From positions 31 to 64,030 of the forward strand of contig CAYRNR010000033.1 in assembly GCA_964425605.1 (NCBI GenBank): a DNA stretch of 64,000 bases. The letters run 5' to 3'. The first letter of the stretch is position 1. Each line of letters starts with the position of its first letter. Origin of the DNA: an uncultured Rickettsiales bacterium (GTDB taxonomy: Bacteria > Myxococcota_A > UBA796 > UBA9615 > CAYRNR01). Made by a program: the position numbers and the translations under genes. Under the pieces are notes generated by a model that saw nothing but the letters and a program-made list of their open reading frames with translations, was not told the origin of the DNA and did no database searches. Below, piece after piece: positions 10,380 to 64,000 of the stretch.

Positions 10380-10492
10380 GGTGTCTCTCCCCTTGGTGCG
10401 ACGGAGCCCCATCGTTCGAAGTACGTCGTCTATCCCATCCTACACCTCCGGTTGTCGAGACAAGCCACCCCGCGGGGCGATACCCTCGGTTG

Positions 10493-38804: not shown

Positions 38805-38811
38805 CGGTCCG

Positions 38812-40482: not shown

Positions 40483-40492
40483 GGAGGAACCC

Positions 40493-41629: not shown

Positions 41630-41639
41630 GGAGGAACCC

Positions 41640-46956: not shown

Positions 46957-47030
46957 GCCCGCTGTGACCTTCTCCCCCCTGAGCCGTTCCATGAACACGC
47001 CCAACGACCCGCCCCGCGACGGATGGCGAC

Positions 47031-47786
47031 ATGGGGGGACTCGACGATGCGGCAGCCGCGATGCTGCCGTCCCCGGCGTACCGCGACGACCTGGTCGAGC
47101 TGTACAACACCGACTGCCTGCAGGTGCTCCCGCACCTCACGGCCGACACCTTCGACGTGATGGTCACCGACCCGCCCTACGGGATCGCTCTGGCCGGCTC
47201 CAAGAACGGCATGTTCAAGCGCTGGGGCCGGCCGGGGCAGATGCTCGAGGGCGACGAGGACACCGAGCTCGGCCAGGCGGTCATCAACCACGTCCGGGAT
47301 CGCCTCAATCGCCCGGTGGCGGCCTTCGCCAGCCCGAAGGCGCCCTGGGCAGGGCCGTGGCGTTCCCTGCTCGCCTGGGACAAGGGGCCGGCCGTGGGCT
47401 GTGGCGGCGACATGAGGCGCTGCTGGAAACAGACCTGGGAGCTAATCCAGGTCGGCGCCAACGGCCCCCTCAACGGCAAACGGCACAGCGGCGTCATCAC
47501 CTGCTGGACGACCTCGCACAACTACCGCTACCACCCCACCCAGAAGCCCCTGCGGCTCCTGGCCTACCTCATCGACAAGCTCACCCAGCCCGGCGACGTC
47601 ATCCTCGACCCCTTCGCCGGCTCCGGCACCACCCTCGTCGCCGCCAGGCTCCTCGGCCGCCGAGCCGACGGCCTCGAGGTCGACAAGACCTTCTGTGCGG
47701 CTGCCGCCGCGCGACTCTCCGGCCAGATCGCCGAGCCTCCCGAGAAGACGCCCGCGCCCTGGCCGGTTCCGCTGCCCGAACTCTGA
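47031..47786 (+). CDS. beta-class DNA methyltransferase (N6_N4_Mtase; DPPY, so probably N6-adenine), no partner nuclease
   Basis: Motif IV VMVTDPPYG precedes motif I VILDPFAGSGTT. HPTQKPLRL is also present. Confidence 0.8.
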   Translation: MGGLDDAAAAMLPSPAYRDDLVELYNTDCLQVLPHLTADTFDVMVTDPPYGIALAGSKNGMFKRWGRPGQMLEGDEDTELGQAVINHVRDRLNRPVAAFASPKAPWAGPWRSLLAWDKGPAVGCGGDMRRCWKQTWELIQVGANGPLNGKRHSGVITCWTTSHNYRYHPTQKPLRLLAYLIDKLTQPGDVILDPFAGSGTTLVAARLLGRRADGLEVDKTFCAAAAARLSGQIAEPPEKTPAPWPVPLPEL

Positions 47787-51391: not shown

Positions 51392-52476
51392 CAGCCCTCG
51401 CCCGCGCTCCCGTCGGAGGCTCCGCTGGTGACGCTGCGGGCGTGGTCGACGATCTTGGAGAACGAGATCTGGTCGACCCACAGGAAGAACAGCCCGAAGG
51501 CGAAGATGATGGACGTCTGGGTGACGTGGCAGACCACCGCGTAGGCCGCGCCCGAGTCCTTGTCCACGTTCAGCAGCGCCAGGCCGCCGATGATGAACGC
51601 CTCGAACACACCGGCGAACAGCGGCGGCGCAGGCAGCATCACGCCCACCACCAGGACCACCAGCAGCACCAGCCCCCCCAGCAGGCCGATGTGGTCGAAG
51701 TGGAACGCCTTGCACAGGGACCACATGCACAGCACGTTGAGGAACCAGATGAAGACGCTGTGGGTGACCATGGACAGGGCGAAGCGCGCGTCCTTCATGG
51801 TGCGGACGCCGTCGAGGAAAGACTGCATCATCCCCGCGACCTTGTGCGCCAGCCCCTTGTGCACGATCCCCACCACGGAATCCGTCCAGCGCACCGCACG
51901 GTCCTGGAGCACCAGGAACGCGAGCAGGCACCCCACGAAGGGTATGGTCGTGAACCCGATGGCCTTCTGGCCGTCGGCCACGAAGTTCATCTCGATCCCA
52001 CCGATGACGATGGCCTCGGGCAGGTCGGCGAAGATCACCGCCACGTAGAACATCAGGGCCAGGAAGAGGATGTCGATGGTGCGCTCGACCACCACCGAGT
52101 ACATGGACGCGCCGAACGGGGCGTCTGCGCGCTCGTGCAGGAGATACGGCCGCGCGAACTCGCCGAGCCTGAACGGCAGCGCCTGGATGGCGAGGAAGCC
52201 CACCGAGTTGATGCTGAACACCTGGCGGAACGAGACGGGGTGGACCTTGTTCACGATGCGGCCCCACCGCCAGGCCCGGCTGGCGTGCAGAGCGAGGAAC
52301 GACACGAAGCAGACCAGCCACCACAACTTGTCGACATCGCGGATGGCGCCGAGGAAGCGGTCCATGTCCACGTCGTGGAAGATGAGCACGAGCAGCCCGA
52401 TCCCGAGGCCGAAGCTGAACACCAGCTTCACCCACCTGAACCAGCCGCCACCCTTCTTGCCCTCGGCCCCGGTCAC
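51391..52476 (-). CDS. LPG_synthase_TM / UPF0104 flippase-like integral membrane protein
   Basis: About 8 TM helices with WRW..I motif (RAWRWGRIV). The GTG at 52476 overlaps the upstream stop (GTGA). Confidence 0.65.
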   Translation of the reverse strand: MTGAEGKKGGGWFRWVKLVFSFGLGIGLLVLIFHDVDMDRFLGAIRDVDKLWWLVCFVSFLALHASRAWRWGRIVNKVHPVSFRQVFSINSVGFLAIQALPFRLGEFARPYLLHERADAPFGASMYSVVVERTIDILFLALMFYVAVIFADLPEAIVIGGIEMNFVADGQKAIGFTTIPFVGCLLAFLVLQDRAVRWTDSVVGIVHKGLAHKVAGMMQSFLDGVRTMKDARFALSMVTHSVFIWFLNVLCMWSLCKAFHFDHIGLLGGLVLLVVLVVGVMLPAPPLFAGVFEAFIIGGLALLNVDKDSGAAYAVVCHVTQTSIIFAFGLFFLWVDQISFSKIVDHARSVTSGASDGSAGEG

Positions 52477-54368
52477 CGTGTCTGCTCCCCTCTGTCCGAA
52501 CCGCTGCGCCGGCGCCGCAAGCTCCAAACAAGCAGCAGGACCGGAGCGACCGAGGCGCCCTGCGCGGGGGCCGCGCGACATCCACGGCCGCCGAGCATGT
52601 CCTCGCGCGGGTCCGTACTCTCCAGGTACTCGTCGATATTCGCCACGCCGTCAAGGTCGGGATCGTCCAGGGAGTCGTCGACGGCCGTGTCCAGGAAGTG
52701 TGTCCACTCCCAGAGATCGGCCATCTCGTCCCCGTCCACGTCACGCGGGAGCCGGATATCGAGCTCGAAGGCGGCGCCCTCGGCGACGTGAATCACCTGT
52801 GCGTCCGCCAGCCGTCGCTCGCCGCCGCTGTACCAGGTGACCCATCCAGGATCGTCGAAACAGTAGCGGTAGGGCTCCGCCTGGAGTGTATAGGACCCCG
52901 GCACCAGCGGAGCCAGTCGGTATGACCCGTCCTCCTCGCTGGTGGCGAGCCTGGAGGGCAGCTCTGGATCGTCGGGCAGCGCCGTGACGTAGATCCGGTC
53001 CAGCGGGCGCCCCGACTCCCGTTCCCACACGTGCCCCTCGATCACCGCGGCCGTGGGCAGCGCCCGCGCGCCCAGGTCCAGGATCTCGCCCTGGACCACG
53101 TCGAACAGGTCGGCGTCGTTGCTCGACGAGCAGACACCATCGCCGCAGAGGTATCCAGCGAGCACGGTATCCTCGTTCGGGTCCACGTGGATCCGGTAGG
53201 AACCGCTGGCCAGGGTCCCGACGGAGAAGGAGCCGTCGACGTCCGTGTCCGCGCTCGCGTCGGCGCCCTCGCCCTCCGGGTAGGCGCGCACGGAGACGTC
53301 GTACAGCGGGTCGCCGAGGCCCGTCACGCTCCCTGCGACGACCCCCTGGGTTCCGAGGGCCACGTCCACGCCCGTCGTGACGCCGTCCTCGTCCACCGCC
53401 ACGGCGTCGGTCACCGCCGTGGCCAGCCCCTCACTGGAGACCTCGAGGGTGTACGACCCCGGCGAAAGCCCCGACAGGGTGTAGGTCCCGTCGAACCCCA
53501 GCGTCGCCGTGGCCTGGATCCACGACTGCTGATCGTGGCGAGCGTAGACGCCGCCGACGGTCAACGGCGCACCCTCGAGGTCCGTCGCCGTCCCCTCGAT
53601 GGTGGCGCCTGCGGGGATCACCATGTCCCAGCCATCGAGCACCTGGCCACGCAACGCCGTCACCGGCTCGGCCTCGTCGGCCGTGTACCCGGCCGGGTAG
53701 TAGACCACCGGGCGACCCGACACGGTCACCTTGAGCTCGTAGTTGCCCGGCACCGGCGTGGGGTCGTCGCTGCTGACGATGGCCGAGTCCAGGCCCACCA
53801 CGGTGTATCGGCCATCCACGGCCGTGTAGACGGTGGGGTCGATGTTGGAGTTGTAGTAGTCGAGGCCGCGCACGTCGATGCGGGCCCCCTCGACGGGGTC
53901 TCCGGTCGAGCCGTCGGTGACGATCCCGCTGATGGTCCCGCCGCGCGGCAGGTTGAAGTCGATGCCGTCCGCGTACCGATCGTCGCGCAGGTCCAGCAAG
54001 GTCCCGCTGCAGTAGAAGTACATGTCGGCGTAGTACGCGCCGATGAAGTCCTGCCCGTCCAGGGGCCATGCCTTGAGCCGGTGGAAGTCCGCGGGCAGGC
54101 CCATGGCGTGGTAGGCGCCGTCCGCGTCGGTGGTGAAGATCTCGTAGTGGGCCTGGACGTCGAACACCACCACGGACATGCCAGCGATGGACTCGCCGTC
54201 GGGGTACGAGACCACACGGCCCTCCACGTGGCTCGCGCCGCCCGGGTCCACCTGTCGGTTCCCGGGCCACGTCGCTCCCTCGATGACCTCCTCGTCCGCG
54301 CACCCTGGCGACGCGAGGACAAACCACGCGACGACGAGCCAGGCAGTGGAGGCTGGGCTGGATCTCAC
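52473..54368 (-). CDS. lipoprotein with repeated carboxypeptidase-regulatory-like domains and MYXO-CTERM-like tail
   Basis: Lipobox LASPGC. Repeated G.V.D..G.P..GA.V units. DxDxDG-type calcium-like motifs, then GC-RAAPAQGASVAPVLLLVWSLRRRR. Confidence 0.7.
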   Translation of the reverse strand: MRSSPASTAWLVVAWFVLASPGCADEEVIEGATWPGNRQVDPGGASHVEGRVVSYPDGESIAGMSVVVFDVQAHYEIFTTDADGAYHAMGLPADFHRLKAWPLDGQDFIGAYYADMYFYCSGTLLDLRDDRYADGIDFNLPRGGTISGIVTDGSTGDPVEGARIDVRGLDYYNSNIDPTVYTAVDGRYTVVGLDSAIVSSDDPTPVPGNYELKVTVSGRPVVYYPAGYTADEAEPVTALRGQVLDGWDMVIPAGATIEGTATDLEGAPLTVGGVYARHDQQSWIQATATLGFDGTYTLSGLSPGSYTLEVSSEGLATAVTDAVAVDEDGVTTGVDVALGTQGVVAGSVTGLGDPLYDVSVRAYPEGEGADASADTDVDGSFSVGTLASGSYRIHVDPNEDTVLAGYLCGDGVCSSSNDADLFDVVQGEILDLGARALPTAAVIEGHVWERESGRPLDRIYVTALPDDPELPSRLATSEEDGSYRLAPLVPGSYTLQAEPYRYCFDDPGWVTWYSGGERRLADAQVIHVAEGAAFELDIRLPRDVDGDEMADLWEWTHFLDTAVDDSLDDPDLDGVANIDEYLESTDPREDMLGGRGCRAAPAQGASVAPVLLLVWSLRRRRSGSDRGEQTR

Positions 54369-55579
54369 GGGGCGGGCGCCTTGTCCGCGGTCCCCTGCTC
54401 CCGGTCCAGCTGCTCGTCCACCCGCTCGGCCAGGGCGATGGCGAAGCGGTAGGCGAGCGTGATGCTGCCGCGGCTGAGCAACTTGATGCGATCGCGGCCG
54501 GTGTGCACCGGGGTCGCCGGGCGCCCCGACCGCAGCCCCTTGAGGGTGATGGCCGGGTAGCGGTGCCGAGACGCCACGCCCGCGTCGCTCAGACCGAGCA
54601 ACAACATCGGCCGTACCTGCTTGTAGTCCTCCTCCCGAGCCAGCGCCGCCGCGAGCCCGGGCAGGAGCGGGTGGTAGGTCTCACGCGAAGGGGTCTTCTC
54701 GCCCACGGCGAAGCAGATCCGCCCTGCGCCGACGTCGTCGATGTTCACCACGAAGGTGTTCTCGGGCGGCAGCGTCCGACCGAAGGTCTTGAGGAACGCC
54801 TCGACACCGCCGCAGTCCGCCTCACGGCTACCCGTCACGAGGAAACACGGCTCCGCGTGCTGGAGGGGGTGGCTGGCGAAGTACTCGGCAAGCGCCGCCA
54901 GCACGGCCAGGCCCGATCCGTTGTCGTTGGCGCCCCGGGCGGGTCGCGGAAGGCTCCAGTCCATCGACAGCAGGGTCACCACCGCGAACAGGACCACCGG
55001 GATCATCAGCAGTACGTCGAGGACCTCGAGGTGGATGCCCGGAAATCGAAGGGCGATCAGCGCGACCTGGATCCACCCTACCTCCAGGGCCAGCCGCATC
55101 GGGTGCACCTTGGTCGTGCTGTCCGCGCCCTGGAAGAACCGCCCCAGCCAGCGGTTGTGGATCAATCCCCGGCGCGCCACGTCGCCGTGGGCGACGAAGA
55201 GGATGCGGGGGATGTCCTCGTCCTTGCCCGCCATCCTGCGGGCGATGAGGTTGCTGGAGATACCCTTGGGTAGCAACCACCGGAACATCCGCCGGCGGTA
55301 CGCGGCCTCCCCGTGCAGCGACAGGATCGTCAACAGGGTCAGCACCAGCCCCGCCTTGGGGTTGGTCACGCCCCACAGCCCCCCCAGCACCAGACAGAAG
55401 CTGTGGATGGCCCACACGAGCCCAGGGTTGAGATGGCAGACACACCCCTCGACCCGCGCCTGGTAGCCCAGGCGGTTGAGGAGCCCAGCCAGCGCCTCCT
55501 GGCTCGCCCGCTCGCCACGCCCTCCGGCGGTGCGGTCGCCGAACTGCCTCAACTGCTCGATGAACGGCCGCGCTTCCAC
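54365..55579 (-). CDS. membrane-embedded M28-family metallopeptidase
   Basis: FVAHGDV and RGANDNGSGLAVL M28 motifs, interrupted by TM helices. Confidence 0.7.
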   Translation of the reverse strand: MEARPFIEQLRQFGDRTAGGRGERASQEALAGLLNRLGYQARVEGCVCHLNPGLVWAIHSFCLVLGGLWGVTNPKAGLVLTLLTILSLHGEAAYRRRMFRWLLPKGISSNLIARRMAGKDEDIPRILFVAHGDVARRGLIHNRWLGRFFQGADSTTKVHPMRLALEVGWIQVALIALRFPGIHLEVLDVLLMIPVVLFAVVTLLSMDWSLPRPARGANDNGSGLAVLAALAEYFASHPLQHAEPCFLVTGSREADCGGVEAFLKTFGRTLPPENTFVVNIDDVGAGRICFAVGEKTPSRETYHPLLPGLAAALAREEDYKQVRPMLLLGLSDAGVASRHRYPAITLKGLRSGRPATPVHTGRDRIKLLSRGSITLAYRFAIALAERVDEQLDREQGTADKAPAP

Positions 55580-55667
55580 CGTACCCTCGCTGTGATTGGA
55601 TGGCTGTCACTGTAGCACGGGCGAGCGCGACAGGCGCACGAGGTGGTGTGTTGGGTACAATCCGCAC

Positions 55668-56954
55668 ATGAGCGGAGTCGGGGAACACATCACATTCGAG
55701 GCCGCCGGGCGGAGGTTCGTGTTCGTGGTGGCGTCGTCGGCCCTGTTCGAGGTGGACGGGGAGCTCGACGACGCCGTCTGGACTCAGCTGGCCTCGGTCG
55801 GAGCGACACGAAGGACGCGGGACCCCGCGCCGGACGACGGCACGCTGGCCACCCTGGTGCTGCAGCTGCGGAGGTCGTGTAACCTCAGGTGCGCCTACTG
55901 CTACTGCGATCCCGAACCGGGCGACGGAGCGCCAGACCGTATGTCCGCGGAGACGGCCCGCGCGGCGGTGGACCTCTTGTTCGCCCACCTGCCCCCTCGG
56001 GGGCCCGCCGGCATCACCTTCTTCGGGGGAGAACCGTTGCTGGAGCTCCCCCTGCTGCGCGCCACGGCCACCCACGCGCTACAGCGAGCCGCGGAGCTCG
56101 ACCGGGAGGTCACCTTCTCCCTGACCACCAACGGCACCACCGTGACCGAGGAGGCGGCGGATCTTCTGGCGGAGATCGGCGCGCGGGTCACCGTCAGCAT
56201 CGACGGCGACCGCGAGCTCCACGACCACTACCGCGTCTTCGCCGACGGCACGGGCTCGTACGACGCAGTGAAGGCCGGCGTGAGGCTCCTCGAGCGGGGA
56301 CTCCGCCCCAGCGCCCGGGCGACACTCACGGCCGACTCGCCCGATCCAGTACCCGTGGTGGACCACCTGCTCGGCCTGGGCTTCGAGTCCGTGGGGGTGT
56401 CCGTCGCGGACGTGGCGGATCCATCGCTGGCTCCGGCCGACGCGGCGCTGGAGTTGATCGAAGCTGGGATGGAGACCCTGGCCGATCGCTACCTGGACCA
56501 GGCGCTGGCCGGCCGTCACCTGGGATTCGCCAACCTCGACGGCTTGCTGCGCACGCTGCACCGCGGGATGAACCGGGACTACCCGTGCGGCGCAGGGCTA
56601 CGGCTCGCGTGCTGCGACACGGACGGGACGCTCTACGCGTGCCATCGTCTGGCAGGGCGCGCCGCGTACGCCGTGGGGACCCTCGACGGGGGCCTGAACC
56701 GCCGCGACCGGCTGCGCGACCTGAGCCTCCGCGCGCGCACCGGCTGCCACAGCTGCTGGGCGCGGCACCTGTGCGGCGGCGGCTGCCACCACGCCCGACT
56801 CGTCGCGGGGCGCGACGTGGAACAGTTGCAGGTGTGTGCCTGGCTGCGGCGATGGATGCTCAAGGGCCTGCAGGTGTACGCGGAGCTGGTGGTGAGAGGG
56901 ACGCCGTTCCTGGCGGAATTCGTCGATCCTGCACCGCCGTGCGCGGTAGAGTAG
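55668..56954 (+). CDS. qhpD: radical SAM / SPASM peptide-modifying enzyme, QhpD-like
   Basis: CNLRCAYC (CxxxCxxC). C-terminal SPASM cysteines (CGAG...CC...C..., CHSCWARHLCGGGCHH). Followed 17 nt later by the Cys-rich peptide gene. Confidence 0.75.
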   Translation: MSGVGEHITFEAAGRRFVFVVASSALFEVDGELDDAVWTQLASVGATRRTRDPAPDDGTLATLVLQLRRSCNLRCAYCYCDPEPGDGAPDRMSAETARAAVDLLFAHLPPRGPAGITFFGGEPLLELPLLRATATHALQRAAELDREVTFSLTTNGTTVTEEAADLLAEIGARVTVSIDGDRELHDHYRVFADGTGSYDAVKAGVRLLERGLRPSARATLTADSPDPVPVVDHLLGLGFESVGVSVADVADPSLAPADAALELIEAGMETLADRYLDQALAGRHLGFANLDGLLRTLHRGMNRDYPCGAGLRLACCDTDGTLYACHRLAGRAAYAVGTLDGGLNRRDRLRDLSLRARTGCHSCWARHLCGGGCHHARLVAGRDVEQLQVCAWLRRWMLKGLQVYAELVVRGTPFLAEFVDPAPPCAVE

Positions 56955-56971
56955 CGGCGCGGAGGCGAGCG

Positions 56972-57262
56972 ATGGCCAAGGGAATCCGACCGATCAACCT
57001 CAAGGCCCACCTGCTCATGCGGCGAGGCGACGTCCAGGGGTGCGCATTCAGCGAATGCTCCTCCACGTTCGCGCCCGGCTGGGAGGTGGGCGAGTTCGGG
57101 GATCCGGACCCCTGTCCCTGGAAGTTCGACCTGGAGCTGTGCTGGGCCACCTGCTACTGGACCGGCCAGGTACCCGACATGTACATGTACCCCGACTGGC
57201 TCGGCGCCTGCGCGAACATCAACCTCGACTGGCGCAACCTGTGCACCATCCCGGACAACTGA
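56972..57262 (+). CDS. qhpC: 96-aa Cys/Trp/Asp-rich peptide, QhpC (QHNDH gamma subunit)-like precursor
   Basis: GGAGG 6 nt before the ATG. Seven Cys and six Trp. The Cys-to-Glu/Asp and Cys-to-Trp spacings match the QhpC cross-link pattern (see findings). Only the last 96 codons of listed ORF 55889..57262 are real. Confidence 0.65.
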   Translation: MAKGIRPINLKAHLLMRRGDVQGCAFSECSSTFAPGWEVGEFGDPDPCPWKFDLELCWATCYWTGQVPDMYMYPDWLGACANINLDWRNLCTIPDN

Positions 57263-57264
57263 CC

Positions 57265-58266
57265 ATGCGCTGCCTCCTGCTCCTCCTCGCCCTGGTGGCG
57301 GTCACTCCGGCCCACGCGGAGAACGCCTGGGTGGCGTCCACGTCCATCCGGATCATCGACCTGGACTCCGGCGCGCTGGTGGGGAGCACCACCGTCGCGG
57401 CCGATCAGGTGATCCGCGAGATCGCCTTCGACGACAGCGGCGCGCGCGCCTTCGTGGCGTCCATGGGCGGTCTGTTCGTCGTGGACACGGCGTCCCTGGG
57501 CGTGCTGGAGCGGATCAGCGACCGGCCCACCTGCTCGGTGGACTTCCGCGATGGCACCCTCGCAGCGCTCCACCTGAAGCCCGCGGGCGACGGGCTCGCC
57601 GAGCGGGATCAGGGGATCCCGTCCACGGTGACCCTGGCCCTGTACGACGCGGCCACCGGCGCAACGCTGGCGCAGGCCGAGGTGCACGGCCGACCGCTGC
57701 GGGTCCGCGCCACCGCAGATCGCCTCTTCGTGCTCGACTCCAACGAGGCGGTCCTGACGGTGTTCGACCGGGCCGCGTCGCGGATGGGAGAGGTGGATCT
57801 GGCTCCGGACGCAGAAGACGGGCAGGCGTTCCTGTGCGCCGATCTGAGCCTGTCCGGCGAAGGCACCCTCGCCGTGGCGCGCAGTTCGTCGGCGGGTTCG
57901 GCCGTCGTGATGGTGTGGCCCGCCGACGCCGTGGCCGACTCCAGGGTGTCCGTGGTGGACGTCGGGGCCGAGCACCGCGTCCGCGGCGCCGCGTTCGCGA
58001 TGGATTCCGAGCACGTGTACGCCACGGCCATGGGCCACGTCGCGCGCCTGTCGACGAGCGCCCCGGCGGCCACCTGGCAGCACGTCGGGCACCGCTTCGC
58101 CGCGGTGGAGACCTCCCCCAGCGGGGCGTACGTCGTGATGGCCACGCCGATCTTCGACGAGCAGCGCGGCACGGGCGGTGTGCTGGTGGCCGACGCCGAG
58201 GGCCGGACCCTGCGGGTGATCGAGCTGGTGGACATCTCCCCCTACACCCTCGCCGTCCAGCCGTGA
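57265..58266 (+). CDS. qhpB: secreted beta-propeller protein, QhpB (beta subunit)-like
   Basis: Signal peptide MRCLLLLLALVAVTPAHA. Repeated beta-strand blade-like units. Its position directly after the peptide gene matches qhpDCB order. Confidence 0.55.
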   Translation: MRCLLLLLALVAVTPAHAENAWVASTSIRIIDLDSGALVGSTTVAADQVIREIAFDDSGARAFVASMGGLFVVDTASLGVLERISDRPTCSVDFRDGTLAALHLKPAGDGLAERDQGIPSTVTLALYDAATGATLAQAEVHGRPLRVRATADRLFVLDSNEAVLTVFDRAASRMGEVDLAPDAEDGQAFLCADLSLSGEGTLAVARSSSAGSAVVMVWPADAVADSRVSVVDVGAEHRVRGAAFAMDSEHVYATAMGHVARLSTSAPAATWQHVGHRFAAVETSPSGAYVVMATPIFDEQRGTGGVLVADAEGRTLRVIELVDISPYTLAVQP

Positions 58267-59120
58267 CCGCGACGGCAGGCTTCACCGTCTCCGCCCGCGG
58301 TGATCGCCCCCTGGCCCAGCGCGCCCACCTCCCCGACTGGCTCCGCTCCGCGCGGCGCTCCCACCTGCGGATCGGCTCGTCCCTGTGCCACCGCCGGATG
58401 CCCGACGCCGCGGCCCTGGAGCGTGCGATCGGTCGGTCACGCGACGCGGGGCTGGGCCTGGAGGTGGCGACACCAGTCGTGGGTGACGTCGCCCTGGAGG
58501 CGCTCACACGGCTGCTGCTGCAGCTGGCCGAGGAGGCACCCGACGCCGAGGTCGCCGTCAACGATTGGGGAGTCCTGCGGGTCCTGATCCGCCGGGGTCG
58601 CTCCCTGCGCATCGTCGCCGGGCGACTCCTCCACCGACAGATGCGCGATCCCCGCCTGGTGACCCTGGAGCCCCGGGATCTGGGCCACGACGACTGGCCG
58701 GAGGCCTGGCGCTGGGGGTCTTCGTCCTCCCCTGCGTGGCGGGAGTTCGCCTCGGCCTGCGGCATGACCCGCTTCGAGATGGACTGGGCCCGTCCCGGTC
58801 CCGGGCCGACCCCGCCGACGGGGCTGGACGCCTCGATCCACCTCCCCTTCACGCTGGTGGGGCTGGGCAGGACGTGCCTCGACCACGGTCCCGCGGGACC
58901 GGCGGACGGGTACGGCGGTGACGAGCCCTGCGGCCAGGCCTGCACCGGGAGGCCTCGCGGGGTCGTGGAGTCGAGCTCCGCGGCGGGATCCGTGGAGCTG
59001 CTGCGGGAGGGACGCGCCGAGCTGGTTCGCCAGCCGCCCGAGGAGCTGGAGCGGGCCCGGACGTGGCTGGTCACACCGCCGCGGGGCACACGCGTGATCG
59101 TCGCCGGCGAGGGGGACTGA
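58263..59120 (+). CDS. U32-family Fe-S protein, UbiV-like
   Basis: The GTG overlaps the preceding stop. GSSLCHRR, VAVNDWGVLRVL, IVAGRLLH and the C-x17-C-x3-C cluster align by eye with E. coli UbiV. Confidence 0.6.
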   Translation: MTATAGFTVSARGDRPLAQRAHLPDWLRSARRSHLRIGSSLCHRRMPDAAALERAIGRSRDAGLGLEVATPVVGDVALEALTRLLLQLAEEAPDAEVAVNDWGVLRVLIRRGRSLRIVAGRLLHRQMRDPRLVTLEPRDLGHDDWPEAWRWGSSSSPAWREFASACGMTRFEMDWARPGPGPTPPTGLDASIHLPFTLVGLGRTCLDHGPAGPADGYGGDEPCGQACTGRPRGVVESSSAAGSVELLREGRAELVRQPPEELERARTWLVTPPRGTRVIVAGEGD

Positions 59121-59121
59121 C

Positions 59122-60084
59122 GTGGATCTGCTCGCGCCCCTCTCCGCTGCCGAGGAGGTCGAGCCCCTGGTCCGGGCCGGCGCCACGGACCTGTACTGTG
59201 GCCTGTTCGACCGGGGCTGGGCGCGGCGCTGGGGGCTGGGGAGCTGGCCCAACCGTCGCGGGCCCGGGCCGGCGAATCTGGGCGATCTGGAGGAGCTGGA
59301 ACGAACAGGTCAGGAGGCGGCCGCAGCGGGAGTCCGGCTCCACCTGGTGCTCAACTCGCCGCTGCTGGGCGACGAGCAGGAGGCCGCCGTGCTCGCCCTC
59401 GCCCGGACGGCCGTGGAGGAGCTGGGGGTCCACGGGCTGATCGTCGCCAACCCGGGCCTGTTGCGTCCCCTCGCCGACACCGGCGCCCTGGTCACGGCCA
59501 GCACCCTGTGTACGGTGCGCAACGCCGAGGCCGCGCTGTTGCTGGCCGACCTGGGCGCTCATCGTATCGTGCTCAGCCGACAGCTGGCCCTGGCGGAGAT
59601 GCGCACCATCCGCGACAGGACGCCCGGGCTGGAGCTGGAGGCGTTCGTGCTCAACGACGCGTGCGTCTTCGAGGAGGGCAGCTGCTTCACCGCTCACGCG
59701 CTGCCGGGCTGGGGCGGAACGTACTGCCTGGGTGATCGTCGGGTGCTCGAGGAGTCCGACGCCTGGGCGCGTCACCGGGCGTGGACCGACGCCCTGGGGG
59801 CCCGCGGCTTCTCCGCGGCGGGCCTCCCCCGCGGGCCGTGTGGCCTGTGCGCGCTGCCCGCGCTGGCGGACATGGGGATCGACGGCGTCAAGGTCGTCGG
59901 CCGGGAGGCGCACCCGTACAGGAAGGTCCGGTCGGTCCAGATGGTGCGTCACGTGCTAGACGGCCTCGACGCGGGCGGCCCCGAAGAGGCCTCCTCGCGC
60001 GCCCTGGCGCTGCGAGACGACGCGGGCGGCTGCCGCTCGGGCCTCTCGTGTCTGTACCCGGAGGCTCGCCGCTTCGATGAGTGA
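59122..60084 (+). CDS. U32-family protein, UbiU-like
   Basis: N-terminal LLAPLS..E..PLVRAGATDLYCG. EAFVLNDACVFEEGSC matches the E-x-F...C-x4-G-x-C part of the U32 signature. GPCGLC is also present. Confidence 0.7.
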   Translation: MDLLAPLSAAEEVEPLVRAGATDLYCGLFDRGWARRWGLGSWPNRRGPGPANLGDLEELERTGQEAAAAGVRLHLVLNSPLLGDEQEAAVLALARTAVEELGVHGLIVANPGLLRPLADTGALVTASTLCTVRNAEAALLLADLGAHRIVLSRQLALAEMRTIRDRTPGLELEAFVLNDACVFEEGSCFTAHALPGWGGTYCLGDRRVLEESDAWARHRAWTDALGARGFSAAGLPRGPCGLCALPALADMGIDGVKVVGREAHPYRKVRSVQMVRHVLDGLDAGGPEEASSRALALRDDAGGCRSGLSCLYPEARRFDE

Positions 60085-61819
60085 GTCGTCCCCCTCCCGC
60101 TGGCACGAGCTGCTCCGCGTTCTGAGCTGGCTGCGGCCCCACTGGCGGGTCCAGGTGGGGCTGCTGGGGCTCATGGCGCTGGGCACTGGGCTCTCCCTGG
60201 CCTACCCCTGGCTGCTCAAGCTGGTGTTCGACCAGGTCTTCGCCCGCGACCGCTACGAGCTGCTGCCCTGGCTCGCGGCGGGCATCGCAGCGTCCGCCGT
60301 GGCCGGCGCCGCGTTGAGCGCCCTCGCCTCGTGGCATCAGGCGCGCCTCGCCGTGACCGTGCTCCTCGAGCTGCGGACCGCCCTGTTCGACCGGCTCCAG
60401 CGGTTGAGCCTGGACTACGTCCAGCGGGCCCGGCTGGGGGACCTGCTCAGCCGCCTCGGCGGGGACCTCAACGAGGTGCAGACGGTCGCGACGTCCACCG
60501 TCATCCCGCTGGCGGGCGCGCTGCTGAACCTGACGGGTTCGGTGGTCCTGCTGGCCTGGATCTCCCCCACCCTGCTCGGCGTGGCGCTGCTCTTCGCGCC
60601 CGCGGCGTGGGCCCTGGTGCGCCTGTTCCGCCCCCGCGTCGAGGCGCGGGCGCTTCAGGTTCGCGAGCGCAACGCCGACCTGGGCAGTCAGATGGTGGAG
60701 AGCCTCCAGGAGGCGCGGTTCGTGCGCGCCAGCGGCACCGCCGATCTCGAGGTGTCGCGGTTCGCGGCCCTCAACCGCGCCCTGGCGACGAGCGTGCTCG
60801 GCTTCCAGAAGCTCTCCCTGGCGTATGGAGGCACAGGGCAGGTGCTCGTGGCGATCAACGGGCTGGCCATCTTGCTCGTGGGAGCCGCGCTGGTGCGCCA
60901 GGAGATGCTCACCGTGGGCGATCTCGTGGCGTTCGCGCTGTATCAGGCCCGACTGTTCGGTCCGGTGCGGGGCCTGACCGCCATGGCCCTCGGCCTCCAC
61001 CGCGCGCGCGCCTCGGTGAGGCGCGTATTCGAGGTCCTGGACGAGGACCTCCCCGCGGCCCCTTCCGGCGGCGGCAAGGCGCTGGACGCTCTCGAGGGGC
61101 GCGTGGAGCTTCAGCATGTGGGCTTCGCCTACGATCCGGGGCACCCCGTGCTCGAGGGCGTCTCGTTCATCGTCCCGCCCGGGCGCTCCCTCGCCGTGGT
61201 GGGGCCTTCGGGGGTGGGCAAGAGCACGCTGGTAGACCTCCTGCTGGGCCTGCGCCAACCGACGGCGGGAACGGTGAAGATCGACGGACACCCCCTCGAG
61301 ACCCTGGATCCGGGGTCGTTCCTCCCTCGCATGGCCCTGGTGAGCCAGCGCCCCGCGGTCTGGTCGGACACCTGGCGCGCGAACCTGCTCTACGGCATCG
61401 AGCCACGCGACGACCGCGAAGTGTGGGAGGCGCTGCAGCAGGTGGGCCTGCTGTCGTTCGTCGAACGCCAGGGCCTCGACGCCCACGTGGGTCAGCGGGG
61501 GGCACGCCTCAGCGAGGGGCAACGCCAGCGCCTCGGCCTGGCGCGCGCGCTGCTGCGGAGGCCCGCCGTGCTGGTGCTGGACGAGGTCACCGCCGGCCTC
61601 GACTGGGAGGCGGATCGGCTGGTCGGCGACCTGCTGGCGTCGCTGGACGGCCGCGTGACGCGCATCCTGGTCACCCACCGCCTCTCCCTGTCCGCCATCG
61701 CCGACGAGGTGGTGGTGCTCCAGGAGGGTCAGGTCGTGCAGCGTGGCGACCACGCCGCGCTCAAGGCGGCGCCGGGACTCTACCGGGATCTGCTGCGACG
61801 GCAGGTGGATGTCGGCTGA
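60077..61819 (+). CDS. ABC exporter (fused TMD-NBD), QhpF-like
   Basis: Six-TM N-terminal half. Walker A GPSGVGKST, signature LSEGQRQR, Walker B VLVLDE. Confidence 0.8.
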   Translation: MSESSPSRWHELLRVLSWLRPHWRVQVGLLGLMALGTGLSLAYPWLLKLVFDQVFARDRYELLPWLAAGIAASAVAGAALSALASWHQARLAVTVLLELRTALFDRLQRLSLDYVQRARLGDLLSRLGGDLNEVQTVATSTVIPLAGALLNLTGSVVLLAWISPTLLGVALLFAPAAWALVRLFRPRVEARALQVRERNADLGSQMVESLQEARFVRASGTADLEVSRFAALNRALATSVLGFQKLSLAYGGTGQVLVAINGLAILLVGAALVRQEMLTVGDLVAFALYQARLFGPVRGLTAMALGLHRARASVRRVFEVLDEDLPAAPSGGGKALDALEGRVELQHVGFAYDPGHPVLEGVSFIVPPGRSLAVVGPSGVGKSTLVDLLLGLRQPTAGTVKIDGHPLETLDPGSFLPRMALVSQRPAVWSDTWRANLLYGIEPRDDREVWEALQQVGLLSFVERQGLDAHVGQRGARLSEGQRQRLGLARALLRRPAVLVLDEVTAGLDWEADRLVGDLLASLDGRVTRILVTHRLSLSAIADEVVVLQEGQVVQRGDHAALKAAPGLYRDLLRRQVDVG

Positions 61820-62546
61820 CCTCCCCCTCGTCGCCGTGCTGGACTCGGGTGTGAACCCTCGCCATCCGCACCTGACCCACGTGACCCTCGAGGGATTCGC
61901 CGCACCGGACGACTCCGGCGATCTGGACGAGGCGGCTCCCCCCTGCGACGTCCACGGTCACGGAACCGCCGTGACCGCGGCGGTGTTCCGGCGCGTCCAG
62001 CGCGGGCGCCTCCTCGGCATCCGCGTCCTCGACGCCAGGCTGGCGGGTCACCATCAACTCCTCGCGGACGCCATCTCTCTGGCCGCGAGGCGGGGCGCCC
62101 GCCTGATCAACGTGTCGATGGGCACCTCCGACGAAGCGGCACGACCGCGACTGGCCGAGGCCGTCCGGTTCGCCCAAGCGGGTGGTGCCATCGTGGTCGC
62201 CGCCGTGCCTCCGGTCGGGTGTGGCTGGCCAGCAGACCTACCCGGCGTCCTCGGCGCGGTGGCGGATCCCGCGTGCCCGCCGGACCGGGCATACCCGGTG
62301 GATCCCGACCGAGGCTTGCCCGCCGCGCCCGAATGCGCTTTGCTCCGGTATCGGGCCCACTCCGACGCCATCCCCCCCGGCGGGGCCGCTCGGCGCGGGA
62401 ACCTCGGCGGCAGCAGCCTGGCCGCCGGTCACCTGACCGGCCTGGTCGCGGCGCTGCTCACGCGCGAGCCCCAGCTGGATCTCACGGGGATACTCCAGAG
62501 ACTGGGCCCGGAGACGGAAGGAGGGTGTCCATGGGACGACGTCTAG
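61809..62546 (+). CDS. small subtilisin-like S8 serine peptidase, QhpE-like
   Basis: VAVLDSGV (Asp), HGHGTAV (His), GGSSLAAGHLTG (Ser). No signal peptide. About 245 aa. Confidence 0.7.
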   Translation: MSADLPLVAVLDSGVNPRHPHLTHVTLEGFAAPDDSGDLDEAAPPCDVHGHGTAVTAAVFRRVQRGRLLGIRVLDARLAGHHQLLADAISLAARRGARLINVSMGTSDEAARPRLAEAVRFAQAGGAIVVAAVPPVGCGWPADLPGVLGAVADPACPPDRAYPVDPDRGLPAAPECALLRYRAHSDAIPPGGAARRGNLGGSSLAAGHLTGLVAALLTREPQLDLTGILQRLGPETEGGCPWDDV

Positions 62547-64000
62547 CCGCCGCGCTGGTGGCGCTGCTGATGACCGCAGCCACCCCGACCGCGCACGCCA
62601 ATCAGGGCGACATCATGGGGATCGGCGCGGCCGCCATGGGCCGCGGGGGCGGCGGGGTGGCCATCGCCGACGATGTCTTCGCGCTCTACTACAACCCAGC
62701 GGGTATGGCCCAGCTCGAGCGCGGTGCCTTCGCCTTTGGCGCCCACGGCGGTCATATGCGGCTCCAGGGCTTCCCGCCCATCGCCTGGGACGCCAACAAC
62801 GACGGCGTCATCAACCCCGAGAACCCCTACGACCGCTGGGTCGTCGAGGACTACGACTACGACGATCCCAGCGGCTTCCACGCCGGGCTGGTCAAGAGCT
62901 ACACCAAGTGGTTGCGCATGGGCCTGTGCCTGACCCTGCCGTGGAAGCGGATCATCGCCGTACAGCAGGAGGATCCGTACCTCCCCTACTACGTCCGCTG
63001 GAAGAACCGCCCCCAGCGGCTGAGCCTGTACGCCGGCGCCTCCATCCAGCCCGTGGACGGGCTGGCCTTCGGCGTGAGCGTCGCCATCCTGGCGCGCTGC
63101 AAGCTGGTGCTGGACTTCCAGATCGACGCCACGGTGGACGACTCGCAGCTCCAGGACGATCCCGAGGAGTCCCTGAACCTGGACCTGATCGTCAACCCAC
63201 AATACATCGAGCTCGACGTGCGCCCCGCGTTCGCGCCCATCCTCGGCTTCCGGCTGGACATGAAGCTGGTGCACGAGTCCCTGGCCGGCTGGACCTGGGG
63301 CGTGACCTACCGCCACCCCATCGACCTGCTCATCGAACCCACCATCCTGGGCCTGGACCTCTACGGGCGGGCGGAGGATCTGGGCTCGCTGGAGTCGATC
63401 ATCGTCCCGCTCCAGGCGCAGATCTATTTCTCCATCCTCGACTACTTCACGCCGCGGCAGCTCGCGCTGGGGACCGCGCTGCGCAAGGAGTTCTTCACGG
63501 CGTACGTGGACCTGACGTGGAACCAGTGGTCCAAGGCCGCGCCCTCGGTGGGTCGCATCGACGAGTCCGCCACAGAGGTCAAGATCGGGCTGGTGGACAT
63601 GGACCCGCGGGTGATCAACGCGCGGGAGATCGATCCCCTCGAGTGGAGGGACACCTGGGTGTTCCGCGCCGGCTTCGAGATCACCCCCAAACCCAAGCAC
63701 ATCGGCGGCAAGTTCGAGGAGATCGGCGTCGTGTTCCGCGGGGGGTATGCCTACGACCCCACCTGGATACCCGAACAGACCCGCATGACGAACTTCATGG
63801 ACTCGGACCATCACCTGGTGTCCTTCGGCACCGGCGTGCGCGTGGGCGACCCCTTCGGTGTGATCGAGGGGCCCATCAGCCTCGACGTGTTCCTTCAGCT
63901 GCAGAAGATGGTCTCCCGTACCCACACGAAGGACGGCGACCTGGTCGAAGACGGCACCGTGCCCGCCGGGTATCCCCTGGCCGGCGAGATCACCACCGAC
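62531..64000 (+). CDS. FadL/TodX/OMPP1-family outer-membrane transport protein (3' end outside window; absent from the ORF track)
   Basis: Own translation: MGRRLAAALVALLMTAATPTAHANQGDIMGIGAAAMGRGGGGVAIADDVFALYYNPAGMAQL... stays open to the window end. The signal peptide and the GA.AMGRGG...A..YNPAG motif are typical of the family. AGGAGGG precedes the ATG, and the start overlaps the S8 gene by 16 nt. Confidence 0.65.
   Translation, partial: MGRRLAAALVALLMTAATPTAHANQGDIMGIGAAAMGRGGGGVAIADDVFALYYNPAGMAQLERGAFAFGAHGGHMRLQGFPPIAWDANNDGVINPENPYDRWVVEDYDYDDPSGFHAGLVKSYTKWLRMGLCLTLPWKRIIAVQQEDPYLPYYVRWKNRPQRLSLYAGASIQPVDGLAFGVSVAILARCKLVLDFQIDATVDDSQLQDDPEESLNLDLIVNPQYIELDVRPAFAPILGFRLDMKLVHESLAGWTWGVTYRHPIDLLIEPTILGLDLYGRAEDLGSLESIIVPLQAQIYFSILDYFTPRQLALGTALRKEFFTAYVDLTWNQWSKAAPSVGRIDESATEVKIGLVDMDPRVINAREIDPLEWRDTWVFRAGFEITPKPKHIGGKFEEIGVVFRGGYAYDPTWIPEQTRMTNFMDSDHHLVSFGTGVRVGDPFGVIEGPISLDVFLQLQKMVSRTHTKDGDLVEDGTVPAGYPLAGEITTD

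What the first reader, a model, noticed from the sequence alone, without database searches (positions are those of the whole stretch)
58263..60084. UbiV/UbiU-like U32 Fe-S pair sits where the O2-dependent Trp hydroxylase QhpG is expected
In characterised qhp operons the FAD monooxygenase QhpG hydroxylates the Trp that becomes cysteine tryptophylquinone. Here no flavoprotein is present. Instead two translationally coupled U32-family genes lie between the propeller and the exporter. One is UbiV-like, with a C...C-x17-C-x3-C cluster. The other is UbiU-like, with the partial U32 signature E-x-F...C-x4-G-x-C. U32 members UbiU/UbiV, TrhP and RlhA are established O2-independent hydroxylases of ubiquinone precursors, tRNA and rRNA. 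I infer an oxygen-independent route to tryptophylquinone cofactor biogenesis acting on a peptide substrate. As far as I know this has not been described, but I cannot verify novelty without a literature or database search.
Basis: inference. Interest (0 to 1): 0.85.

Follow-up and report, generated by a model that had tools for sequence, protein, structure and literature searches.

The report
U32 iron-sulfur pair in qhp operons
Where the oxygen-requiring enzyme QhpG normally sits in the gene cluster that builds a tryptophan-derived quinone cofactor, this cluster and relatives in several phyla carry two iron-sulfur proteins related to known oxygen-independent hydroxylases, which suggests an untested oxygen-free way to make the cofactor.

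Summary
Genes at 58263-59120 (285 aa) and 59122-60084 (320 aa) are coupled to each other and to their neighbours. They lie inside a qhpD-qhpC-qhpB-like cluster with an ABC exporter and a QhpE-like protease. The 320-aa protein is a true U32 protein and a full-length homologue of E. coli UbiU, but not its orthologue. The 285-aa "partner" has no Pfam or NCBIfam match. It keeps four invariant Cys in a UbiV-like layout and models as a TIM barrel closest to the only solved U32 structure. No QhpG or QhpA is encoded in the window.

The pair follows qhp genes. It is present in every relative of this QhpA-less cluster with enough sequence. It is also in full qhpADCB operons of Acidobacteriota and Betaproteobacteria that lack qhpG. 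Aromatoleum and Thauera carry it together with qhpG. Of 15 reference-genome qhpC loci with the pair, 13 lack qhpG.

The wider partner+U32 family is mostly not qhp-linked, and 32 of 80 qhpC loci show neither gene within 10 kb.

Best reading (about 0.6): an O2-independent hydroxylase of the cofactor tryptophan in QhpC, replacing or backing up QhpG. This rests on gene context only. The searchable papers hold no description of it.

The parts
55596..56954 (+). QhpD-like radical SAM/SPASM peptide maturase. This is the longest ORF; the likely ATG start is at 55668.
   Evidence: Pfam Radical_SAM. The best NCBIfam match is TIGR03906, the QHNDH maturation protein, at 294.8 bits against a cut-off of 453. 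It scores 488 bits against a QhpD profile built from the loci.
56972..57262 (+). QhpC-like precursor peptide of 96 aa, the gamma-subunit homologue that would carry cysteine tryptophylquinone (CTQ).
   Evidence: NF037958 at 53.2 bits, above the cut-off of 50. PF08992 at E 1e-11. It aligns with chains 1jmx_G and 1jju_C. All three thioether pairs and the CTQ pair are conserved: C29/E38, C48/D53, C61/D69 and C57/W63.
57265..58266 (+). Divergent QhpB-like beta-propeller with an N-terminal signal peptide.
   Evidence: No Pfam match. The family profile against canonical QhpB gives hhalign probability 97.7%, E 1.3e-12, over 293 columns. It matches chain 1jju_B at E 1.4e-4.
58263..59120 (+). The 'partner': a 285-aa protein with four invariant Cys in a UbiV-like layout and a predicted U32-like TIM barrel. 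The family is unannotated.
   Evidence: C42, C205, C223 and C227 are invariant. hhalign against the U32 clade gives 91% over 77 columns. The AlphaFold2 model has pLDDT 80 and pTM 0.82. The best Foldseek match by TM-score and probability is 5d88, a U32 protein. No Pfam or NCBIfam match.
59122..60084 (+). UbiU-like U32 iron-sulfur protein of 320 aa.
   Evidence: PF01136 at E 1.1e-30. hhalign against E. coli UbiU gives 99.6%, E 8e-24, over 257 columns. The motif C181-x6-C188-x13-C202-x37-C240 is invariant, compared with UbiU CX6CX16CX38C (PMC6747719).
60077..61819 (+). QhpF-like ABC exporter with fused permease and ATPase.
   Evidence: Pfam ABC_membrane and ABC_tran. It scores 659 bits against the QhpF profile.
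61809..62546 (+). QhpE-like subtilisin-family protease.
   Evidence: NF049966 (QhpE) at 122.8 bits against a cut-off of 165; Pfam Peptidase_S8. The start was placed by comparison with relatives.
62531..64000 (+). FadL/TodX-type outer-membrane channel. It is coupled to the protease gene and runs off the end of the window. It is conserved downstream in most relatives of the QhpA-less clade.
   Evidence: PF03349 at E 5.6e-8. The same gene is present in L001, L005, L008 and L010.

Best explanation
The two genes encode a cytoplasmic two-protein iron-sulfur enzyme built like UbiU-UbiV. One is a UbiU-like U32 protein. The other is a very divergent partner with a U32-like fold. Each has four conserved Cys that could bind a [4Fe-4S] cluster.

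Proposed route:
1. QhpD installs the three thioether crosslinks in the QhpC precursor.
2. The pair hydroxylates the indole ring of Trp63 without O2. By analogy with UbiU/UbiV the oxygen would come from prephenate. This step is done by the flavoprotein QhpG in characterised systems.
3. The ABC transporter exports the peptide, and the QhpE-like protease removes the leader.
4. The peptide assembles with the QhpB-like propeller.

What is shown: gene content, coupling, residue conservation, homology to UbiU, and the tight and largely QhpG-exclusive association with qhp genes.

What is inferred: Fe-S binding, heterodimer formation, the substrate (QhpC Trp63), the chemistry, and the oxygen donor.
For: (a) The substrate is intact. 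QhpC keeps every residue needed for the crosslinks and for CTQ.

(b) No QhpG is encoded in the window or in any of the QhpA-less loci.

(c) The pair lies inside the operon with overlapping or abutting reading frames.

(d) The arrangement is conserved down to 42-43% U32 identity and in different genomic backgrounds.

(e) The pair also follows qhpB in canonical qhpADCB operons that lack qhpG: L027, L044, L050, L051, L056, L124, L170, L176 and L177.

(f) Among 80 reference-genome qhpC loci, 28 have qhpG only, 13 have the pair only and 2 have both.

(g) The two loci with both are Aromatoleum and Thauera, with the order qhpFEG...qhpADCB-porin-aldehyde dehydrogenase-partner-U32. Aromatoleum aromaticum uses QHNDH for anaerobic amine degradation. 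The basis is the title of Schmitt et al. 2019, as cited in PMC11231019.

(h) QhpG takes both O atoms from O2 (PMC7876137), so an anaerobic route needs another enzyme.

(i) U32 proteins are linked to O2-independent hydroxylation of aromatic rings. UbiU and UbiV each bind a [4Fe-4S] cluster through CX6CX16CX38C and CXnCX12CX3C motifs (PMC6747719), and prephenate is the O donor (PMC10990095). The Cys patterns here are close to these.

(j) The U32 protein is a full-length UbiU homologue. The partner models as a TIM barrel closest to the only solved U32 structure.
Against: - There is no experimental evidence. Hydroxylase activity has not been reconstituted in vitro even for UbiU/UbiV, TrhP or RlhA (PMC10990095).
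- The partner has no detectable sequence similarity to UbiV. Its Foldseek E-values are weak (5e-3), and the Cys-bearing loop 202-224 is modelled with low confidence.
- The wider partner+U32 family is mostly not qhp-linked. Of 80 metagenome loci, 69 show no qhp gene. 17 of these loci are at least 12.8 kb long and lie next to ETF, FAD/CCG oxidoreductase, LipA/LipB or methylmalonyl-CoA mutase genes.
- One member of the qhp-type U32 clade, L156, has no qhp gene within 10 kb.
- 32 of 80 qhpC loci have neither qhpG nor the pair within 10 kb. The hydroxylase gene can therefore lie elsewhere, and a distant qhpG in this genome is not excluded.
- The grouping of all qhp-linked U32 proteins has only moderate support in a crude neighbour-joining analysis. 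Their common ancestor includes at most 6 outsiders in 57% of replicates.
- Nothing here shows that hosts carrying only the pair, such as the Bryobacteraceae, are anaerobes.
Confidence: 0.6

Rival explanations
1. The pair acts on QhpC or the amine dehydrogenase, but at a step other than Trp hydroxylation. Candidates are forming the Cys57-Trp63 thioether, oxidising the diol to the quinone, making the two extra crosslinks implied by the additional Cys of this QhpC variant, or supplying or removing electrons for the radical SAM enzyme QhpD.
For: The operon linkage shows a connection to QhpC maturation, not the step. Fe-S proteins often act as electron carriers, and the role of the U32 clusters is unknown (PMC11574389). 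This QhpC variant has two extra conserved Cys.
Against: The pair is also present in canonical operons whose QhpC lacks the second extra Cys. Its distribution complements that of QhpG, the hydroxylase, and not that of any other qhp gene: 13 of 15 loci with the pair lack qhpG, while QhpD is present with both. In the characterised system, in vitro QhpD crosslinking used only dithionite and SAM (PMC7876137).
Confidence: 0.2
2. The pair is a general O2-independent hydroxylase for another target, such as a quinone, an RNA base or a small metabolite. It lies next to qhp genes without acting on QhpC.
For: Most partner+U32 pairs in metagenomes are not near qhp genes and lie in metabolic contexts. All characterised U32 oxidases act on ubiquinone precursors or RNA (PMC11574389). 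An ABC1/UbiB-type kinase gene is in the window at 10313-11581.
Against: The reading frames are coupled inside the operon. The adjacency is kept across Acidobacteriota, Betaproteobacteria, Planctomycetota and the QhpA-less clade, in varied flanking contexts. The proteins score far below the UbiU, UbiV and TrhP cut-offs. There is no UbiT/SCP2 or ubiquinone gene in the cluster. The ABC1 kinase is 47 kb away, beyond a prophage.
Confidence: 0.08
3. The U32 protein is a true peptidase, the original annotation of the family. It would process the QhpC leader or degrade misfolded precursor, with the partner as an accessory subunit.
For: The family is filed as peptidase U32 in Pfam. Reviews still allow for a peptidase subclass (PMC11574389). 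Loci L010 and L011 lack the QhpE-like protease and the exporter but keep the pair.
Against: A QhpE-like protease is already encoded in the window and in most loci. The invariant Cys sets match the Fe-S ligand patterns of UbiU and UbiV (PMC6747719). The complementarity is with qhpG, not with qhpE.
Confidence: 0.05

Closest known systems
UbiU-UbiV (E. coli YhbU/YhbV), the O2-independent hydroxylase of ubiquinone biosynthesis
   Same: Two adjacent genes. One is a U32 protein whose clade aligns with UbiU over 257 columns (hhalign 99.6%), with a CX6C...C...C motif. The second protein has one distant N-terminal Cys followed by C-xn-C-x3-C, like the CXnCX12CX3C motif of UbiV (PMC6747719). Known U32 oxidases insert oxygen into an aromatic ring without O2.
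   Different: Not orthologous: 54 bits against a cut-off of 440 for UbiU, and no match to the UbiV model. The partner lacks a recognisable U32 domain. The gene order is partner first, then U32. There is no UbiT. The genes are embedded in a peptide-maturation operon, so the presumed substrate is a protein-bound Trp rather than a prenylated phenol.
QhpG, the FAD-dependent monooxygenase of CTQ biogenesis (NF049967)
   Same: Same place in the pathway and often the same place in the operon. It acts, or is proposed to act, on crosslinked QhpC in the cytoplasm before export (PMC7876137).
   Different: Unrelated fold and cofactor. QhpG uses O2 as its oxygen source (18O experiments, PMC7876137). It is absent from the window and from all QhpA-less loci.
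TrhP (YegQ) and RlhA (YdcP), U32 proteins needed for O2-independent hydroxylation of tRNA and rRNA
   Same: Same U32 superfamily. TrhP is the second-best NCBIfam match (51 bits). Both depend on prephenate and Fe-S clusters (PMC10990095).
   Different: They are single proteins with extra C-terminal domains and RNA substrates. The score is far below the cut-off of 534.
Canonical quinohemoprotein amine dehydrogenase operon qhpADCBEFG(R)
   Same: Homologues of QhpD, QhpC, QhpB, QhpF and QhpE are present, co-directional and coupled. All functional residues of QhpC are conserved.
   Different: There is no QhpA (the dihaem subunit) and no CxxCH-containing ORF in 50-64 kb. There is no QhpG. QhpB is very divergent. 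QhpC has two extra conserved Cys. QhpD and QhpE score below the NCBIfam equivalog cut-offs.
LodB/GoxB and MauG, the other tryptophylquinone maturases
   Same: They carry out the same kind of task: oxygenating a peptidyl Trp to make CTQ or TTQ.
   Different: LodB and GoxB are flavoproteins related to QhpG. MauG is a dihaem enzyme (PMC11951088). None is an Fe-S or U32 protein.

Membership tests
Peptidase U32 / U32 oxidase superfamily (Pfam PF01136): the 320-aa protein | Match to the PF01136 domain above the gathering score | tested here: met
   107 bits against a cut-off of 22.4, E 1.1e-30, residues 98-289.
Peptidase U32 / U32 oxidase superfamily: the 320-aa protein | Conserved four-Cys motif of the CX6C...C...C type, which ligates a [4Fe-4S] cluster in UbiU | tested here: met
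   C181-x6-C188-x13-C202-x37-C240 is invariant in 19 clade members. UbiU has CX6CX16CX38C (PMC6747719). Cluster binding itself was not tested.
UbiU (NCBIfam NF047963 equivalog): the 320-aa protein | Score at or above the curated cut-off of 440 bits | tested here: not met
   54.2 bits. qhp-linked U32 proteins from other phyla score 73-95 bits. It is a homologue (hhalign 99.6%), not an orthologue.
UbiU/UbiV system | Association with ubiT (SCP2 domain) and other ubiquinone biosynthesis genes | tested here: not met
   There is no SCP2 or ubi gene in the cluster. The neighbours in more than 25 loci are qhp genes.
UbiV (NCBIfam NF047965): the 285-aa partner | Sequence match to the UbiV model or to a U32 domain | tested here: not met
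   No match at E up to 10 for 10 family members or at E up to 0.01 for four further members. hhalign against E. coli UbiV gives probability 0.3%. No PF01136 match.
UbiV-like architecture: the 285-aa partner | One N-terminal Cys followed by C-xn-C-x3-C, a U32-type TIM barrel, and a gene adjacent to a UbiU-like gene | tested here: met
   C42...C205-x17-C223-x3-C227 is invariant. hhalign against the U32 clade gives 91%. The model's best match by TM-score and probability is the U32 structure 5d88, with TM 0.46/0.51 and probability 1.00 but E 5e-3. The gene is adjacent to a U32 gene in most loci where both were detected, with a Uma2 gene inserted between them in L176 and L177.
U32 oxidase heterodimer | Physical UbiU-UbiV-type complex with two [4Fe-4S] clusters and prephenate-dependent hydroxylation | not testable with these tools
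   Needs protein purification, spectroscopy and activity or labelling assays.
Quinohemoprotein amine dehydrogenase (qhp) system | QhpC gamma subunit with three Cys-Asp/Glu crosslink pairs and the Cys-Trp pair of CTQ | tested here: met
   NF037958 at 53.2 bits against a cut-off of 50. All eight residues are conserved against 1jmx_G and 1jju_C.
Quinohemoprotein amine dehydrogenase (qhp) system | QhpD radical SAM maturase, QhpB propeller, QhpE protease and QhpF exporter | tested here: inconclusive
   Homologues of all four are present. QhpD (295 bits against 453) and QhpE (123 bits against 165) are below the equivalog cut-offs. QhpB is recognisable only by profile-profile comparison (97.7%).
Quinohemoprotein amine dehydrogenase (qhp) system | QhpA dihaem alpha subunit, the 'hemo' part of the name | tested here: not met
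   The QhpA profile finds nothing in the window. No CxxCH-containing ORF of 100 aa or more lies in 50-64 kb. The same holds in about 20 related loci.
Quinohemoprotein amine dehydrogenase (qhp) system | QhpG flavin monooxygenase | tested here: not met
   The QhpG profile finds nothing in the 64 kb or in any QhpA-less locus. The rest of the genome was not available.

The most novel reading that the evidence does not exclude
A dedicated clade of U32 iron-sulfur enzymes hydroxylates a protein-bound tryptophan without O2, probably using prephenate as the oxygen donor, to make cysteine tryptophylquinone. This would be the first protein substrate for U32 oxidases and the first O2-independent route to a tryptophylquinone cofactor. 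It would explain how denitrifiers such as Aromatoleum make active amine dehydrogenase anaerobically. It would also make U32 pairs candidates for other unexplained anaerobic hydroxy-Trp modifications, such as those in methyl-coenzyme M reductase. Separately, the window's cluster would encode a haem-less (QhpA-free) CTQ enzyme.
Probability: 0.55. Interest if true: 0.9.

Novelty: new variant of a known kind. Interest (0 to 1): 0.8.

Why it matters
All characterised routes to tryptophylquinone cofactors use an oxygen-dependent or peroxide-dependent oxygenating enzyme (QhpG, LodB/GoxB, MauG). Yet QHNDH is used in anaerobic amine degradation (Schmitt et al. 2019, title only).

If the qhp-linked U32 pair is the missing oxygen-free hydroxylase, it would do four things:
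- extend U32 oxidases from lipids and RNA to proteins;
- give the U32 field a small, soluble, genetically encoded substrate (QhpC) for the in vitro assay it still lacks;
- define a large unannotated protein family (the partner: about 2,100 representative clusters, all called hypothetical);
- parallel the aerobic/anaerobic enzyme duality already known for ubiquinone (UbiIHF versus UbiUV).

Tried and rejected
- **Chance or wrong frame.** Rejected: codon-position GC, exact matches to database proteins and conserved synteny all agree.
- **The pair is the host's UbiU/UbiV.** Rejected on scores and context.
- **The partner is a detectable UbiV homologue.** Tested and not found. Only a remote link to the N-terminal half of U32 proteins was seen, plus a weak fold match.
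- **Sequence search of the partner against PDB.** Nothing. The only U32 structure in the PDB is 5d88.
- **The partner family is exclusive to qhp operons.** Rejected: most metagenome loci lack qhp genes.
- **A third conserved hydroxylase candidate in qhpC loci that have neither qhpG nor the pair.** None was recurrent.
- **A QhpC sequence signature separating QhpG-type from pair-type operons.** None was obvious among the proteobacterial sequences.
- **Robust monophyly of the qhp-linked U32 proteins.** Bootstrap support for the exact 30-leaf clade is only 0.24. The common ancestor of the qhp-linked proteins includes at most 6 outsiders in 57% of replicates. The QhpA-less subclade has 0.94.
- **Organism name.** No tRNA or Rfam match was found.
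- **Schmitt et al. 2019 (J Bacteriol).** The paper could not be read, so I do not know whether it mentions these genes.
- **L036 (Planctomycetota).** The genes upstream of qhpC could not be identified.


Full report
**1. What is at the coordinates**

The plus strand of 55.6-64.0 kb carries eight co-directional genes whose frames overlap or nearly abut.

| Coordinates | Gene product |
|---|---|
| 55596/55668-56954 | radical SAM/SPASM enzyme |
| 56972-57262 | 96-aa peptide |
| 57265-58266 | secreted 333-aa protein |
| 58263-59120 | 285-aa protein, the "partner" |
| 59122-60084 | 320-aa U32 protein |
| 60077-61819 | ABC exporter |
| 61809-62546 | subtilisin-like protease |
| 62531 to beyond 64000 | FadL-type outer-membrane protein |

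GC at the third codon position is 0.89-0.90 in the proposed frames. The public protein collection holds exactly the 285-aa and 320-aa products.

The junctions are a GTGA overlap, a 1-nt gap, an 8-nt overlap, an 11-nt overlap and a 16-nt overlap.

**2. Identity of the neighbours**

- *Peptide.* It passes the NCBIfam equivalog model for the QHNDH gamma subunit (53.2 bits against 50). Aligned with the crystallised gamma subunits 1jmx_G and 1jju_C, it keeps all eight residues needed for the three thioether crosslinks and for CTQ. These are C29/E38, C48/D53, C61/D69 and C57-W63.
- *Radical SAM enzyme.* Its best match is the QhpD model, below the cut-off (295 bits against 453).
- *Protease.* Its best match is QhpE, also below the cut-off (123 bits against 165).
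- *333-aa protein.* It has no Pfam match. Its family profile aligns end to end with canonical QhpB (hhalign 97.7%, E 1.3e-12).
- *Missing genes.* There is no QhpA. The profile search finds nothing, and no CxxCH-containing ORF lies in 50-64 kb. There is no QhpG anywhere in the 64 kb. Pfam scans of the remaining non-prophage genes show no flavin monooxygenase.

The setting is thus a divergent, haem-less relative of the qhp operon, not a canonical one.

**3. The two genes themselves**

*The 320-aa protein* is a true U32 protein (PF01136, E 1.1e-30).
- Its clade aligns with E. coli UbiU over 257 columns (hhalign 99.6%, E 8e-24).
- It scores only 54 bits against the UbiU equivalog model (cut-off 440) and 51 bits against TrhP. 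It is a paralogue, not UbiU.
- In its clade C181-x6-C188-x13-C202-x37-C240 is invariant, along with C26, C243 and C310.
- UbiU ligates its [4Fe-4S] cluster through CX6CX16CX38C (PMC6747719).

*The 285-aa partner* matches nothing in Pfam or NCBIfam.
- It shows no similarity to E. coli UbiV.
- C42...C205-x17-C223-x3-C227 is invariant in 41 relatives down to about 21% identity. UbiV is CXnCX12CX3C, with the first Cys far upstream (PMC6747719).
- Its N-terminal half aligns with the U32 clade (hhalign 91%).
- An AlphaFold2 model (pLDDT 80, pTM 0.82) is a beta/alpha barrel. Its Cys loop, residues 202-224, has low confidence.
- In a Foldseek search of the PDB, the match with the highest TM-score and probability is 5d88 (TM 0.46/0.51, probability 1.00, E 5e-3). 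That is the only U32 structure in the PDB.

"UbiV-like" therefore holds for architecture and probably for fold. It does not hold as demonstrable homology.

**4. Does the pair travel with qhp genes?**

*Single-sequence searches.* These found few relatives: 9 for the partner, and 36 close relatives for the U32 protein followed by a gap to generic U32 proteins.

*Contigs examined for those relatives.*
- All but one carry rSAM-QhpC-propeller-partner-U32 wherever the sequence reaches. This holds down to 42-43% U32 identity and with different flanking genes, for example in L014.
- The exception is L004. There a basal pair ends a cluster with three radical SAM genes and no QhpC.

*Scan of one genome per GTDB species with a QhpC profile.* It found 481 loci, and the best 80 were fetched. 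I searched them in six frames with profiles built from a reference Pseudomonas taiwanensis operon:

| Locus type | Loci |
|---|---|
| QhpA present, QhpG only | 28 (plus 4 with weak QhpG-like hits) |
| QhpA present, pair only | 5 (Bryobacteraceae, Solibacteraceae, a betaproteobacterial MAG, a proteobacterial MAG) |
| QhpA present, both QhpG and pair | 2 |
| QhpA absent, pair | 8 |
| QhpA absent, partner only (truncated contig) | 1 |
| Neither within 10 kb | 32 |

- No QhpA-less locus has QhpG.
- In the canonical operons the pair usually follows qhpB directly.
- Two top-scoring partner proteins from Blastocatellia-type contigs sit in operons ordered qhpA-D-C-x-B-partner-Uma2-U32-F-E. Neither operon has a flavoprotein.

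*The two loci with both genes.* They are Aromatoleum sp. and Thauera sp.
- Their order is qhpFEG...qhpADCB-porin-aldehyde dehydrogenase-partner-U32, all on one strand.
- Aromatoleum aromaticum is reported to start anaerobic degradation of aromatic amines with two QHNDHs. The basis is the title of Schmitt et al. 2019, cited in PMC11231019. The paper itself was not available.
- QhpG inserts oxygen from O2 (PMC7876137).
- A facultative denitrifier carrying both enzymes mirrors UbiIHF and UbiUV in ubiquinone synthesis.

**5. Limits of the association**

- A profile search shows the partner belongs to a sizeable, wholly unannotated family. About 2,100 representative clusters match at E up to 1e-3 and 577 at E up to 1e-30. 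All carry the name "hypothetical protein" where a source gives one, and none has a Pfam domain.
- In a metagenome scan with the partner profile, 69 of 80 loci show no qhp gene. Most of these loci also have a U32 gene.
- 17 of those 69 loci are at least 12.8 kb long.
- Their recurrent neighbours are ETF subunits, an FAD_binding_4/CCG oxidoreductase pair, LipA/LipB, methylmalonyl-CoA mutase and a B12-radical SAM enzyme.
- In a neighbour-joining tree rooted on E. coli UbiU, the qhp-linked U32 proteins group together and apart from most non-qhp ones.
- Support for that grouping is modest:
  - the exact 30-leaf clade has bootstrap 0.24;
  - the common ancestor of the qhp-linked proteins includes at most six outsiders in 57% of replicates;
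  - the QhpA-less subclade has 0.94.
- L156 lies inside the qhp-type group but has no qhp gene within 10 kb.
- Because 32 of 80 qhpC loci have neither candidate nearby, absence of qhpG from the window does not prove absence from the genome.

**6. Mechanism proposed**

*Shown:* gene content, coupling, conserved residues, homology to UbiU, and operon co-occurrence that complements qhpG.

*Inferred:* the partner and the U32 protein form a UbiU-UbiV-like heterodimer with two [4Fe-4S] clusters in the cytoplasm. It binds QhpC after, or together with, QhpD. It hydroxylates Trp63 at the positions that become the quinone, taking oxygen from prephenate as proposed for U32 enzymes (PMC10990095). Export, leader removal and assembly with the propeller follow.

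I put this at about 0.6. About 0.2 goes to a different step of QhpC maturation. About 0.08 goes to an unrelated target. About 0.05 goes to a true peptidase role.

**7. Comparison with what is known, and novelty**

- Characterised U32 oxidases act on ubiquinone precursors, rRNA and tRNA only (PMC11574389).
- Reviews of protein-derived cofactors list only QhpG for QHNDH and LodB/GoxB for the other CTQ enzymes (PMC11951088).
- No held paper combines tryptophylquinone, QHNDH, QhpC or QhpD with U32, UbiU or prephenate.

Within the searchable literature the association is therefore undescribed. I rate it a new variant of a known kind: a U32 oxidase pair recruited to a protein substrate. It has a clear, cheap experimental test in Aromatoleum or Thauera, or in E. 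coli co-expression.

**8. Verdict**

The "UbiV-like" gene resembles UbiV in architecture only. The host cluster is a QhpA-less variant, and the phenomenon extends to canonical QHNDH operons in other phyla.

Noticed in passing
window 55596-64000; also L001-L022, L105, L167: The qhp-like cluster lacks the dihaem subunit QhpA altogether. There is no CxxCH-containing ORF in 50-64 kb. Its QhpC has two extra conserved Cys (C80 and C92 of the precursor), and its QhpB is very divergent. This looks like a haem-less CTQ enzyme whose electron acceptor is unknown.
   Followed up: partly
window about 12000-50100: A Mu-like prophage: rve transposase 38701-40479, MuB-like AAA protein 40394-41626, Mu Gam 41463-42101, DNA methylase 46995-47783, and many small minus-strand genes. 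In relatives (L001, L008, L010) a PfkB kinase gene lies directly beside the Ser/Thr kinase gene, so the prophage appears to be an insertion specific to this genome.
   Followed up: partly
window 10313-11581 (+): An ABC1/UbiB-type atypical kinase gene, a family linked to ubiquinone biosynthesis. It lies 47 kb from the U32 pair, on the far side of the prophage, and is not conserved next to the pair in relatives.
   Followed up: partly
L004 1-10921: A basal U32+partner pair (here U32 first) ends a tightly packed cluster with three radical SAM genes, one of them SPASM-type, and several unannotated proteins. There is no QhpC. U32 pairs may have been recruited to other radical-SAM peptide maturation systems.
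   Followed up: no
L097, L098, L102, L110, L116, L130, L142, L149, L150, L154, L155, L165, L166, L173: A large sister group of partner+U32 pairs has no qhp genes. They recur next to ETF alpha/beta subunits, FAD_binding_4 plus CCG/4Fe-4S oxidoreductases, LipA/LipB, methylmalonyl-CoA mutase or a B12-radical SAM enzyme. Their substrate is unknown.
   Followed up: partly
window 52473-55579 (-); L001, L008, L010, L012: An M28 peptidase gene and a protein with multiple CarboxypepD_reg domains are transcribed divergently from the cluster. They are conserved there across the QhpA-less clade. Downstream, a FadL-type outer-membrane protein, a trypsin-like protease, a TPR protein and a metallo-beta-lactamase-fold protein are conserved in many of its members. 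Whether this reflects function or only shared synteny is unclear.
   Followed up: no
L010/L011 10981-11260: In these relatives the ABC exporter and the QhpE-like protease are missing from the cluster, although rSAM-QhpC-propeller-partner-U32 is kept.
   Followed up: no
L176 9939-10571; L177 7410-7805 and 9945-10580: Blastocatellia-type canonical operons carry Uma2-family (and PDDEXK) nuclease-like genes inserted between the partner and U32 genes, and between qhpC and qhpB.
   Followed up: no
L028, L034, L043, L047, L048, L058, L074, L079 and 24 further qhpC loci: 32 of 80 reference qhpC loci have neither qhpG nor the U32 pair within 10 kb. Twelve of these do have qhpE or qhpF adjacent. No third recurrent candidate gene was seen there.
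   Followed up: partly
L156 9704-11907: A partner+U32 pair that groups with the qhp-linked clade has no qhp gene within 10 kb on a 59-kb contig.
   Followed up: no
window 3-848, 922-2094, 2113-4677 (-), 6182-7906 (-): Other genes near the start of the window: the C-terminal part of a molybdopterin oxidoreductase, a Porphyromonas-type peptidyl-arginine/agmatine deiminase, a large subtilase with a fervidolysin-like prodomain, and a GH5 cellulase.
   Followed up: no
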